A stretch of DNA of 64,000 nt, from the NCBI RefSeq assembly GCF_045037415.1, contig NZ_CP173438.1, one strand, 5' to 3'. Positions within the stretch are counted from its first letter, which is position 1. Each line of letters begins with the position of its first letter. A program made the translations under genes and the position numbers. This stretch comes from Escherichia coli (GTDB taxonomy: Bacteria; Pseudomonadota; Gammaproteobacteria; Enterobacterales; Enterobacteriaceae). The notes under the pieces are model-generated. The model did not search any database. It saw nothing but the letters and a program-made list of their open reading frames with translations, and was not told the origin of the DNA. This document shows positions 6,679 through 7,005 of the stretch, piece by piece.

Positions 6679-7005
6679 AATAAATCCTTCTGGCGAATAT
6701 AAAGAAGGTCGGATGCCTTAACCCAACCAATTAATCAATCAATTAAAACATAGAGGACATTCAATATTGCCAGTAGATTGGCACCTAATCAAACATATTC
6801 TCTGACAATCTGTAATTATAATTTGAGTGAATGAATACACCTGCATAATATACAACTTGCGTATATTATATGAATTATAGATTTAAATGGCATCAGATAA
6901 GCATTCATTTGATAAAAAACGGTACAAATCAATACTCAAATAAATAAATCAGAGCAGAAGCATAATTCTGCTTTATAATTAAAGGGAAAAATAATTATAT
7001 AACTG

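What the first reader, a model, noticed from the sequence alone, without database searches (positions are those of the whole stretch)
6679..7005. AT-rich upstream region of the autotransporter gene with inverted repeats
The 330 bp upstream of the ydbA start are strongly AT-rich, with repeated caatcaattaa-type motifs and inverted repeats (ataatatac...gtatattat at 6849-6873; ataattaaaggg...ataattat near 6975-7000). This architecture is typical of H-NS-silenced, horizontally acquired surface-protein promoters and may explain conditional expression.
Basis: inference. Interest (0 to 1): 0.3.

Follow-up and report, generated by a model that had tools for sequence, protein, structure and literature searches.

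The report
AT-rich promoter spacer upstream of ydbA

Summary
Window 6679-7005 is exactly the spacer between the stop codon of a paaY pseudogene remnant (7008-7006) and the start codon (6678) of an intact ydbA/BigA-type autotransporter adhesin gene. Both lie on the minus strand.

The AT-richness is real. At 28.7% GC it is the lowest 327-bp stretch in the 64-kb window. All 36 alleles examined are similarly AT-rich (24.5-32% GC, one IS1-disrupted spacer excepted) despite 25-45% sequence divergence.

The repeats exist but carry little weight:
- The 9-bp inverted repeat sits 4 nt from the stated coordinates, has P about 0.05 in shuffles, and is not conserved.
- The caatcaattaa repeat has P about 0.13 and comes from an allele-specific 4-bp indel.

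Three elements are conserved:
- a core promoter, TTGATT-17-TGgCAATAT (6792-6764);
- a leader stem-loop with a U-rich tail (6728-6697);
- the ribosome-binding site.

A weakened paaY terminator lies at 6972-6953.

The K-12 counterpart is one of 78 published promoter islands and is H-NS-bound in two ChIP data sets. The H-NS reading is therefore plausible by orthology but untested for this allele. An invertible switch (0 of 5426 genomes), Dam/OxyR control (no GATC), Rfam RNAs and the K-12 small gene ynbG are excluded.

Verdict: ordinary and already known; low interest.

The parts
6676..6678 (-). ydbA start codon; the ORF stays open over 2226 codons to the window start
   Evidence: Translation begins MQRKTLLSACIALALSGQGWA, a signal peptide. 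No stop codon occurs down to window base 1. In the identical SK1144 locus the gene encodes 2867 aa with Pfam BigA_N and BigA_beta and NCBIfam auto_BigA hits.
6685..6691 (-). Shine-Dalgarno AGAAGGA, 6 nt before the ATG
   Evidence: Read directly from the sequence. Invariant in the 6 genome alleles.
6686..6708 (-). Weak second hairpin, CCTTCT(6708-6703)/AGAAGG(6691-6686), which would sequester the ribosome-binding site; it shares 2 nt with the first hairpin
   Evidence: RNAfold gives -5.4 kcal/mol in the window and FDAARGOS_1260 alleles. It is weaker or in a different register in the others. This is inference only.
6697..6728 (-). Conserved leader stem-loop GGTTGGGT-TAAGGC-ATCCGACC (6728-6707) followed by TTCTTTATAT (6706-6697); terminator-like
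   Evidence: Flagged by the terminator scan. Present in the centroid fold of the sense strand but not the antisense strand. Folding energy is -9 to -19 kcal/mol in all alleles, and the stem is kept around a 23-nt loop insertion in SCPM-O-B-8794. On 14 distinct leaders 98.2% of cells are paired; 4 of 8 pairs vary on one side only, always via G-U wobble, and none shows a double compensatory change.
6724..6746 (+).
   Evidence: Found. P about 0.13 in shuffles. Caused by a 4-bp insertion seen only in this allele type. It carries the two 2-mismatch matches to tCGATAAATT.
6764..6792 (-). Best candidate ydbA core promoter: -35 TTGATT (6792-6787), 17-bp spacer, extended -10 TGgCAATAT (6772-6764); predicted start near 6758, giving a leader of about 80 nt
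   Evidence: It is the only promoter-like site present at the same alignment column in all 6 genome alleles. It falls in the most conserved bins of the spacer across 36 alleles (0.90-0.96). The divergent allele L040 keeps TTGATC-17-TGgCAATAT with a different spacer sequence. No experimental start site was found.
6800..6935 (.). Hypervariable, extremely AT-rich distal segment (GC about 25%) carrying several promoter-like hexamer pairs on both strands and a predicted bend centred near 6905
   Evidence: GC is 0.255 in 6800-6999. Identity to K-12-type alleles is 58-70% in 6840-6930, against 92-97% next to the ATG. The scan found 7 promoter-like sites in 6400-7400 against 2.9 +/- 1.6 expected. Predicted curvature is in the top 0.34% of the window, using wedge parameters recalled from memory.
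6845..6869 (.). Perfect 9-bp inverted repeat ATAATATAC-N7-GTATATTAT; the left arm overlaps a TATAAT hexamer
   Evidence: It overlaps the -10 of the best-scoring but non-conserved promoter-like site, ATGCCA(6893-6888)-17-TATAAT(6870-6865).
6943..6972 (-). Remnant of the paaY/paaXY intrinsic terminator: hairpin 6972-6953 plus T-rich tail
   Evidence: Found by the terminator scan. In K-12-type alleles it is a 13-bp stem of -16 kcal/mol, and SCPM-O-B-8794 has changes on both arms that keep a 14-bp stem (-17.7). In this allele it is weakened to -8.9.
6974..6999 (.). 8-bp inverted repeat TATAATTA-N10-TAATTATA between the paaY stop and its terminator
   Evidence: Only partly kept in alleles that carry paaY and absent in FDAARGOS_1260. 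No function is inferred.
7006..7334 (-). paaY pseudogene remnant bounding the spacer; it contains a sigma-54-type motif, TGGCATTGAGAAAGCA, at 7141-7126 pointing towards ydbA
   Evidence: Frame-disrupted translation. PGAP annotates it as a pseudogene in the identical SK1144 locus. The motif was found. Its K-12 ortholog, TTGGCATGGAAAAAGCA, is sigma-54 ChIP-seq peak IS16, 464 bp upstream of ydbA (PMC4591121).

Best explanation
The 327 bp are the regulatory spacer of the ydbA adhesin gene. The following reads in the ydbA sense, from high to low window coordinates.

1. The spacer begins just after the paaY stop with a decayed paaY terminator.
2. Next come about 135 bp of fast-evolving DNA at roughly 25% GC, full of promoter-like hexamers.
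3. Then comes a conserved sigma-70 core promoter with an extended -10 (TTGATT-17-TGgCAATAT).
4. It ends with a leader of about 80 nt holding a conserved stem-loop with a U-rich tail, a Shine-Dalgarno sequence, and the ATG.

The most likely mode of action is the one already described for the K-12 counterpart. The AT-rich tract binds the nucleoid protein H-NS, and also binds RNA polymerase non-productively as a 'promoter island'. This keeps the conserved core promoter largely off under laboratory conditions, so the adhesin is made only when silencing is relieved.

What is shown here: the anatomy, the composition, the conservation pattern, and published H-NS occupancy of the K-12 allele. What is inferred: H-NS occupancy and silencing of this allele, which is 77-79% identical to K-12; use of the predicted promoter; and any role of the leader hairpin.

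For: Gene layout. Lowest-GC stretch of the window. GC of 24.5-32% is kept in 35 of 36 distinct alleles, the exception being the IS1-disrupted spacer, while sequence identity falls to 54-77%. TpA frequency is 0.120 against 0.049 for the window. Promoter-like sites number 7 against 2.9 +/- 1.6 expected. The K-12 paaY/ydbA spacer is listed as a promoter island and as H-NS-bound in two ChIP studies (PMC3661553). K-12 ydbA transcript rises 7.7-fold and RNAP occupancy increases in an rpoZ mutant, so the locus is normally poorly transcribed but transcribable (PMC5811629). The conserved core promoter is supported. The conserved leader stem-loop is supported.
Against: No H-NS, transcription-start or expression data exist for this allele. 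The promoter-island table scores the K-12 spacer as H-NS-bound in two studies, not under the 'all studies' code. No good match to tCGATAAATT is present. The strong predicted bend is not shared by other alleles. The ydbA coding region is G+C-rich, so H-NS could not spread far beyond the 330-bp spacer. AT-richness and promoter-like hexamers are also what relaxed constraint and AT-biased mutation would give in any long spacer.
Confidence: 0.6

Rival explanations
1. It is just a compositionally drifted spacer. It contains a terminator remnant, one ordinary weak promoter and a ribosome-binding site. The AT-richness, hexamers and small palindromes are by-products of relaxed constraint and AT-biased mutation, and H-NS binding, if any, has no regulatory consequence.
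For: The distal 135 bp are the least conserved part of the locus, at 58-70% identity. The repeats are near chance and allele-specific. No high-affinity H-NS motif is present. Curvature is not conserved. An IS1 element sits in the spacer in strain Z226-6.
Against: GC stays at 24.5-32% across very divergent alleles. The K-12 allele is H-NS-occupied in vivo in two data sets. K-12 ydbA transcription rises when RNAP is altered.
Confidence: 0.25
2. The main control lies in the leader RNA. The conserved stem-loop with its U-rich tail (6728-6697) would act as a transcription attenuator or insulator that stops most transcripts about 20-30 nt before the ATG. Alternatively, together with the CCTTCT/AGAAGG hairpin, it would limit translation initiation. 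Leader-RNA control of the agn43 autotransporter gene is a possible analogue, recalled from memory and not checked here.
For: The scan finds a terminator-like pattern. The stem is kept in all alleles through wobble-only changes and around a 23-nt loop insertion. The G-U pairs work only in the ydbA-sense RNA.
Against: There are no double compensatory changes, and three variants weaken the top of the stem. The whole leader does not fold better than shuffles (z = +1.2). The U-tract is interrupted. No 3' ends for ydbA, ynbG or paaY appear in the held supplements of the K-12 3'-end mapping study (PMC7815308); however, the locus is poorly expressed in K-12 and stored files may be truncated.
Confidence: 0.2
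3. It is a phase-variation switch for the adhesin, working either by inversion of the spacer between the imperfect inverted repeats at 6666-6684 and 6972-6990 (fimS-like) or by Dam/OxyR competition (agn43-like).
For: A 19-nt, 79%-complementary inverted repeat brackets the spacer (I1). Adhesin genes are often phase-variable (general knowledge).
Against: A query built with the spacer inverted is matched over at least 80% of its length in 0 of 5426 complete genomes, while 563 carry this allele in the direct orientation. One arm covers the ydbA start codon, and the other arm is broken by an indel in K-12-type alleles. The annotated neighbours include no recombinase gene. There is no GATC in 6500-7200.
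Confidence: 0.02
4. The spacer encodes a small protein or small RNA, as K-12 has the 21-aa gene ynbG on the opposite strand.
For: K-12-type genomes annotate a 21-aa hypothetical protein, MKYINCVYNINYKLKPHSHYK, in the homologous place. The window has a 25-aa ATG ORF at 6870-6947 on the plus strand.
Against: In the window the ynbG start is ATA and the frame hits a stop within 12 codons. The 25-aa ORF is in a different frame, has no ribosome-binding site and lies in the least conserved segment. No Rfam family matches at E <= 1.
Confidence: 0.03

Closest known systems
E. coli K-12 'promoter island' paaY/ydbA (Panyukov & Ozoline 2013, PMC3661553)
   Same: It occupies the same chromosomal position: the spacer between the paaY stop and the ydbA start. 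The length is about the same (327 vs 330 bp) and the GC content is equally extreme (28.7% vs 24.8%). Promoter-like hexamers are in excess. The core promoter, leader hairpin and ribosome-binding site are shared.
   Different: Identity is only 77-79% overall and 58-70% in the distal part. ynbG is not intact. The paaY terminator is weakened. There is a 4-bp insertion in the leader. The gene downstream is intact here, whereas K-12 ydbA is broken by IS2 and IS30. PlatProm scoring, RNAP binding and H-NS binding were not measured for this allele.
H-NS-silenced AT-rich promoters with high-affinity nucleation sites (proU/bgl type; Lang et al. 2007, PMC2094087)
   Same: An AT-rich tract of several hundred bp rich in TpA steps lies directly upstream of, and over, a weak promoter.
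   Different: There is no close match to the 10-bp motif tCGATAAATT: two sites at 2 mismatches, both in an allele-specific repeat. No AT-rich downstream element exists, because the coding region is G+C-rich.
Phase-variable adhesin promoters (fimS invertible element; agn43 Dam/OxyR switch)
   Same: It lies upstream of a large surface-adhesin gene and is bracketed by an imperfect inverted repeat.
   Different: No inverted form is found in 5426 genomes, no recombinase is nearby and there are no GATC sites.
Intragenic sigma-54 promoters with long 5' UTRs (Bonocora et al. 2015, PMC4591121)
   Same: The K-12 sigma-54 ChIP peak IS16 inside paaY points at ydbA from 464 bp upstream. This falls within the 360-760 bp class that the authors propose as promoters for the downstream gene. 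The motif's GG and GC positions are kept in the window's paaY remnant at 7141-7126.
   Different: The site lies outside the finding. The reviewed text reports no transcript from this site. ydbA alleles that lack paaY altogether (FDAARGOS_1260 type) have no such site.

Membership tests
Promoter island (Ozoline group definition) | A region of roughly 300 bp or more with an extreme density of predicted transcription start points | tested here: inconclusive
   PlatProm is not available. A simple consensus scan gives 7 sites against 2.9 +/- 1.6 in shuffles for 6400-7400. The orthologous K-12 spacer is on the published list of 78.
Promoter island (Ozoline group definition) | RNA polymerase bound in vivo with very low productive transcription | not testable with these tools
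   There is only indirect K-12 data: ydbA transcript and RNAP occupancy rise in an rpoZ mutant.
H-NS-bound / silenced region | An AT-rich tract well below the genome average over hundreds of bp | tested here: met
   28.7% GC against 49.2%, the lowest in the window. GC is 24.5-32% in all alleles apart from the IS1-disrupted spacer.
H-NS-bound / silenced region | A high-affinity nucleation motif, tCGATAAATT | tested here: not met
   The best matches have 2 mismatches, at 6735(+) and 6729(-), and lie in an allele-specific repeat. The motif was verified in PMC2094087.
H-NS-bound / silenced region | In vivo H-NS occupancy and derepression in an hns mutant | not testable with these tools
   The K-12 ortholog is scored as bound in the Kahramanoglou and Oshima data. 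No data were found for this allele or for hns-mutant expression of ydbA.
Invertible promoter switch (fimS-like) | Both orientations occur in nature, with flanking inverted repeats and a cognate recombinase | tested here: not met
   0 of 5426 genomes hold the inverted form. The inverted repeat is 15 of 19 and not conserved. The annotated neighbours include no recombinase.
Dam/OxyR phase switch (agn43-like) | A cluster of GATC sites in the regulatory region | tested here: not met
   No GATC in 6500-7200.
Intrinsic terminator / leader attenuator | A G+C-rich stem-loop directly followed by a U-rich tract on the transcribed strand | tested here: met
   The site at 6728-6697 on the minus strand has 8 pairs, 4 of them G-C, a 6-nt loop and the tail TTCTTTATAT.
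Intrinsic terminator / leader attenuator | Structure conserved with covariation; 3' ends observed in vivo | tested here: inconclusive
   98.2% of cells are paired, with wobble-only one-sided changes and no double changes. No entries appear in the K-12 3'-end mapping supplements.
ynbG small-protein gene | An intact 21-codon ORF homologous to K-12 ynbG | tested here: not met
   The start codon is ATA and the frame is interrupted in the window.
Any Rfam RNA family | A covariance-model match | tested here: not met
   No match at E <= 1 in 6300-7600 on either strand.

The most novel reading that the evidence does not exclude
The conserved leader stem-loop with its U-tract (6728-6697) is a genuine cis-acting RNA control element of the ydbA adhesin gene. 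It would act as an attenuator or insulator that stops spurious transcripts arising in the H-NS-bound promoter island, and perhaps a long sigma-54 transcript starting in the paaY remnant near 7115. Adhesin production would then need both relief of H-NS silencing and read-through or unmasking of the ribosome-binding site.
Probability: 0.15. Interest if true: 0.4.

Novelty: already known. Interest (0 to 1): 0.15.

Why it matters
The direct importance is small. It gives a clean map of the control region of an intact 2867-aa BigA-type adhesin gene that is a pseudogene in K-12. The map covers the terminator remnant, the variable AT-rich tract, the conserved core promoter, the leader hairpin and the ribosome-binding site. 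It also shows that the published K-12 H-NS and promoter-island data can be carried over only with caution, because the alleles are 58-79% identical.

It tells anyone building reporter fusions which 120 bp are conserved (6679-6798) and which features can be ignored.

The pattern of conserved composition with unconserved sequence is one more example of selection or mutational bias maintaining AT-richness upstream of surface-protein genes.

Tried and rejected
- Rfam scan of 6300-7600 at a permissive threshold: nothing.
- Search for orthologs outside E. coli with the YdbA N-terminus in GTDB species representatives: only E. coli and two MAG fragments, so no inter-species footprinting was possible.
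- Invertible-switch test with a synthetic inverted query: 0 of 5426 genomes.
- Dam/OxyR idea: no GATC.
- ynbG: not intact here. The first paper search for 'ynbG' returned only yeast-medium papers.
- TGCCA-N6-TGGCA palindrome at 6768-6785: seen only in this allele, not in K-12-type or FDAARGOS_1260 (hand inspection).
- A CRP-like half-site pair near 6826-6843: also not conserved (hand inspection).
- A sigma-54-like TGGCA-N8-GCA at 6888-6903 on the plus strand: the pattern is not enriched in the window, 7 against 4.45 expected.
- The 'caatcaattaa' repeat also fits the IHF core consensus WATCAANNNNTTR, which I recalled from memory. The match is allele-specific and such matches are common in AT-rich DNA.
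- Whole-leader folding is no better than shuffles.
- Experimental transcript ends in K-12: the Thomason 2015 paper is not held. The Adams 2021 supplements have no ydbA, ynbG or paaY entries.
- Predicted curvature is strong here but not in other alleles, so it was not used as an argument.

Full report
**What is at the coordinates**

Window 6679-7005 is exactly an intergenic spacer. On the minus strand an ATG at 6678-6676 opens an ORF beginning MQRKTLLSACIALALSGQGWA, a signal peptide. The ORF stays open for all 2226 codons down to the window start.

The window is base-for-base identical to E. coli SK1144 from 3490 to at least 16005. In SK1144 the gene encodes a 2867-aa protein. It hits Pfam BigA_N and BigA_beta, and NCBIfam auto_BigA ('autotransporter adhesin BigA', 1664 bits, below that model's strict cut-off). 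'Autotransporter gene ydbA' is therefore a fair name.

To the right, 7006-7334 is a frame-disrupted remnant of paaY on the same strand. It is fused to a C-terminal fragment of an HTH regulator gene, probably feaR by position (7333-7584, plus strand). ydbL, ynbE, ydbH, ldhA, hslJ, ydbJ and nifJ/ydbK follow. The genes that lie between paaY and ydbL in K-12, which by my recollection are the rest of the paa operon, tynA and feaB, are deleted in this lineage.

**Check of the observation**

AT-richness is confirmed and is extreme. GC is 28.7% against 49.2% for the window, the lowest of all 327-bp stretches in 64 kb. TpA steps occur at 0.120 against 0.049.

The inverted repeat ATAATATAC-N7-GTATATTAT is perfect but lies at 6845-6869, 4 nt left of the stated position. 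A perfect arm of 9 bp or more occurs in 5% of dinucleotide-preserving shuffles.

The second repeat is TATAATTA-N10-TAATTATA at 6974-6999.

The 'caatcaattaa' motif is the direct repeat CAACCAATTAA/CAATCAATTAA at 6724-6746. It is not beyond chance (P about 0.13).

**Comparison with other alleles**

The spacer occurs in 2390 of 5426 complete E. coli genomes, once per genome as a rule, in three identity classes relative to the window:
- 99% or more: 563 genomes.
- 80-90%: 480 genomes. In the example examined, FDAARGOS_1260, ydbL directly abuts the spacer.
- 60-80%: 1347 genomes. In the K-12-type examples examined, paaY is intact.

I aligned six genome alleles. I then added metagenome contigs found with the invariant 40-mer around the start codon. 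This gave 126 sequences, 101 of them with a full 340 nt upstream, falling into 36 distinct upstream alleles.

Identity between the window and K-12-type alleles is 92-97% next to the ATG (6680-6750). It falls to 58-70% at 6840-6930, which is where the 9-bp inverted repeat lies. That repeat drops to about 5-6 of 9 matching positions in other alleles (hand count from the alignments). The direct repeat exists only here, because of a 4-bp ATTG insertion. Neither repeat is a conserved element.

By contrast, GC stays at 24.5-32% in every allele except one with an IS1 insertion. Composition is kept while sequence is not.

**What is conserved**

1. *Core promoter.* A simple sigma-70 scoring across the alignment finds one candidate present in all six genome alleles: -35 TTGATT (6792-6787), a 17-bp spacer, and TGgCAATAT with the -10 at 6769-6764. 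It lies in the best-conserved bins of the whole spacer (0.90-0.96). A very divergent allele (L040, 54% identical overall) keeps TTGATC-17-TGgCAATAT although the spacer sequence between the hexamers differs. I predict a start near 6758 and a leader of about 80 nt. This is an inference; I found no experimental start site.

2. *Leader stem-loop.* GGTTGGGT-TAAGGC-ATCCGACC at 6728-6707 is followed by TTCTTTATAT, and the scan flags it as terminator-like.
   - It folds at -9 to -19 kcal/mol in all alleles, and the stem is kept around a 23-nt loop insertion in one allele.
   - On 14 distinct leaders 98.2% of cells pair. Four of eight pairs vary, always on one side and always through G-U wobble, and there are no double compensatory changes.
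   - Three rare variants weaken the loop-proximal end of the stem.
   - The wobble pairs work only in ydbA-sense RNA.
   - By my rough binomial estimate, five pairing-preserving changes out of about eight has P about 0.06. This is suggestive, not proof.

3. *Ribosome-binding site.* The Shine-Dalgarno AGAAGGA lies at 6691-6685. A weak hairpin, CCTTCT/AGAAGG (-5.4 kcal/mol), could mask it.

4. *paaY terminator.* In K-12-type alleles a strong 13-bp terminator hairpin (-16 kcal/mol) follows paaY. One allele has changes on both arms that keep a 14-bp stem. In the window allele, where paaY is a pseudogene, it has decayed to -8.9 kcal/mol at 6972-6953.

**Published knowledge**

Panyukov & Ozoline (PLoS One 2013, PMC3661553, Table 1) list the K-12 spacer paaY(+)/ydbA(+), coordinate 1463061, length 385 bp, among 78 'promoter islands'. 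These are regions with an extreme density of predicted start points that bind RNA polymerase but give little transcript. The spacer carries code K, meaning H-NS-bound according to Kahramanoglou et al. (MG1655) and Oshima et al. (W3110). It does not carry the 'all studies' code. Using the sigma-54 paper's distances, I calculate that the island spans about -369 to +15 relative to the ydbA ATG, which is the whole spacer.

Yamamoto et al. (mSystems 2018, PMC5811629) found more RNAP on ydbA and 7.7-fold more ydbA transcript in an rpoZ mutant.

Lang et al. 2007 (PMC2094087) give the H-NS motif tCGATAAATT. The spacer has only two 2-mismatch matches to it, both in the allele-specific repeat.

In the held library I found no paper on ydbA regulation by H-NS, on its start site, or on hns-mutant expression.

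**Most likely mechanism**

The spacer is the ydbA regulatory region. Its AT-rich distal half most likely acts as an H-NS platform and RNAP sink that keeps the conserved core promoter quiet. This is as described for promoter islands in general and for the K-12 allele by ChIP.

Shown here: anatomy, composition, conservation, and K-12 occupancy from the literature. Inferred: occupancy and silencing of this allele, promoter use, and any leader function.

Points against a strong H-NS story:
- There is no nucleation motif.
- Predicted curvature is strong in this allele (top 0.34% of the window, using wedge parameters recalled from memory) but not in the others.
- The ydbA body is G+C-rich (52-58% in 4000-5900), so spreading would be limited to the spacer.

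**Rivals**

- *Plain drifted spacer with no regulatory role for H-NS.* This cannot be excluded without experiments; I give it about 0.25.
- *Leader-RNA attenuation or masking of the ribosome-binding site.* It is compatible with the main model, at about 0.2. The held K-12 3'-end mapping supplements have no entry for ydbA, ynbG or paaY, which is weak negative evidence.
- *Invertible or Dam-dependent phase switch.* Rejected: 0 of 5426 genomes hold the inverted spacer, there is no GATC and no recombinase is annotated nearby.
- *Small gene or sRNA.* Rejected for this allele. K-12 ynbG (21 aa, opposite strand) has no start codon and an early stop here. There is no Rfam hit.

**Novelty and verdict**

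The locus-level feature is an AT-rich, H-NS-bound promoter island between paaY and ydbA, and it is already published for K-12. The window carries a divergent allele of the same thing, in front of an intact gene.

The conserved extended -10 promoter and the leader stem-loop appear in none of the papers I searched, but they are unremarkable kinds of element. Interest is low.

Noticed in passing
window 7126-7141 (minus strand), inside the paaY remnant: A sigma-54-type motif, TGGCATTGAGAAAGCA, points towards ydbA, about 437 nt before its ATG. It is the ortholog of the K-12 sigma-54 ChIP-seq peak IS16 (TTGGCATGGAAAAAGCA, 464 bp upstream of ydbA; PMC4591121). The GG and GC positions are kept although paaY is a decaying pseudogene here.
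   Followed up: partly
window 7006-7584: This is a deletion scar. A 3' fragment of paaY (minus strand, frame-disrupted) is fused at about 7333 to a C-terminal fragment of an HTH regulator gene, probably feaR by position (plus strand). The K-12 genes between paaY and ydbL, which I recall as the paa operon, tynA and feaB, are missing. FDAARGOS_1260-type genomes have a different, larger deletion that joins the ydbA spacer directly to ydbL, so the cluster was lost at least twice or the junctions were remodelled.
   Followed up: partly
window 2706-6012 (ydbA coding region, minus strand): There are tandem 294-bp (98-codon) repeats, about 2.7 + 8.6 copies at 86-92% identity, with a 207-bp variant. 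They create a long antisense shadow ORF (2734-6153, plus strand, 1139 aa) and a ladder of 67-aa ORFs. The window is identical to SK1144 only from 3490 rightwards, so the two differ at a repeat-array boundary.
   Followed up: partly
loci L003, H32, H33, H37 (other E. coli genomes): RefSeq/PGAP names the giant ydbA adhesin protein (for example WP_125118019.1, a 6.7-kb gene) 'EntS/YbdA MFS transporter'. This is evidently a ydbA/ybdA name mix-up propagated in annotation.
   Followed up: no
loci L009 (Z226-6), L011 (G4/9), L002 (K-12 type): Insertion sequences repeatedly hit this locus. IS1 sits inside the AT-rich spacer roughly 120-190 bp upstream of the ATG in Z226-6. An IS3-family element lies at the 5' end of ydbA in G4/9. 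IS2 and IS30 lie inside ydbA in K-12-type strains.
   Followed up: no
window 16751-17067 and 19781-20700: These are the only other stretches of the window below 33% GC over 327 bp. One is the region upstream of ompN. The other is a segment near uspF that other genomes annotate with a tyrosine recombinase/integrase and IS1.
   Followed up: partly
window about 7649 (between the regulator fragment and ydbL): This is the most strongly curved site predicted in the whole window, with an end-to-end/contour ratio of 0.747 over 120 bp. The wedge-model parameters were recalled from memory.
   Followed up: no
summary: One of the 2392 matches to the spacer lies on a plasmid rather than a chromosome.
   Followed up: no
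window 6816-6831 / 6973-6988 and 6674-6682 / 6842-6850: These are short dispersed direct repeats inside the spacer: TTATAATTTGAGTGAA/TTATAATTAAAGGGAA and TGCATAATA twice. They are two-copy families in AT-rich DNA and probably arise by chance.
   Followed up: no
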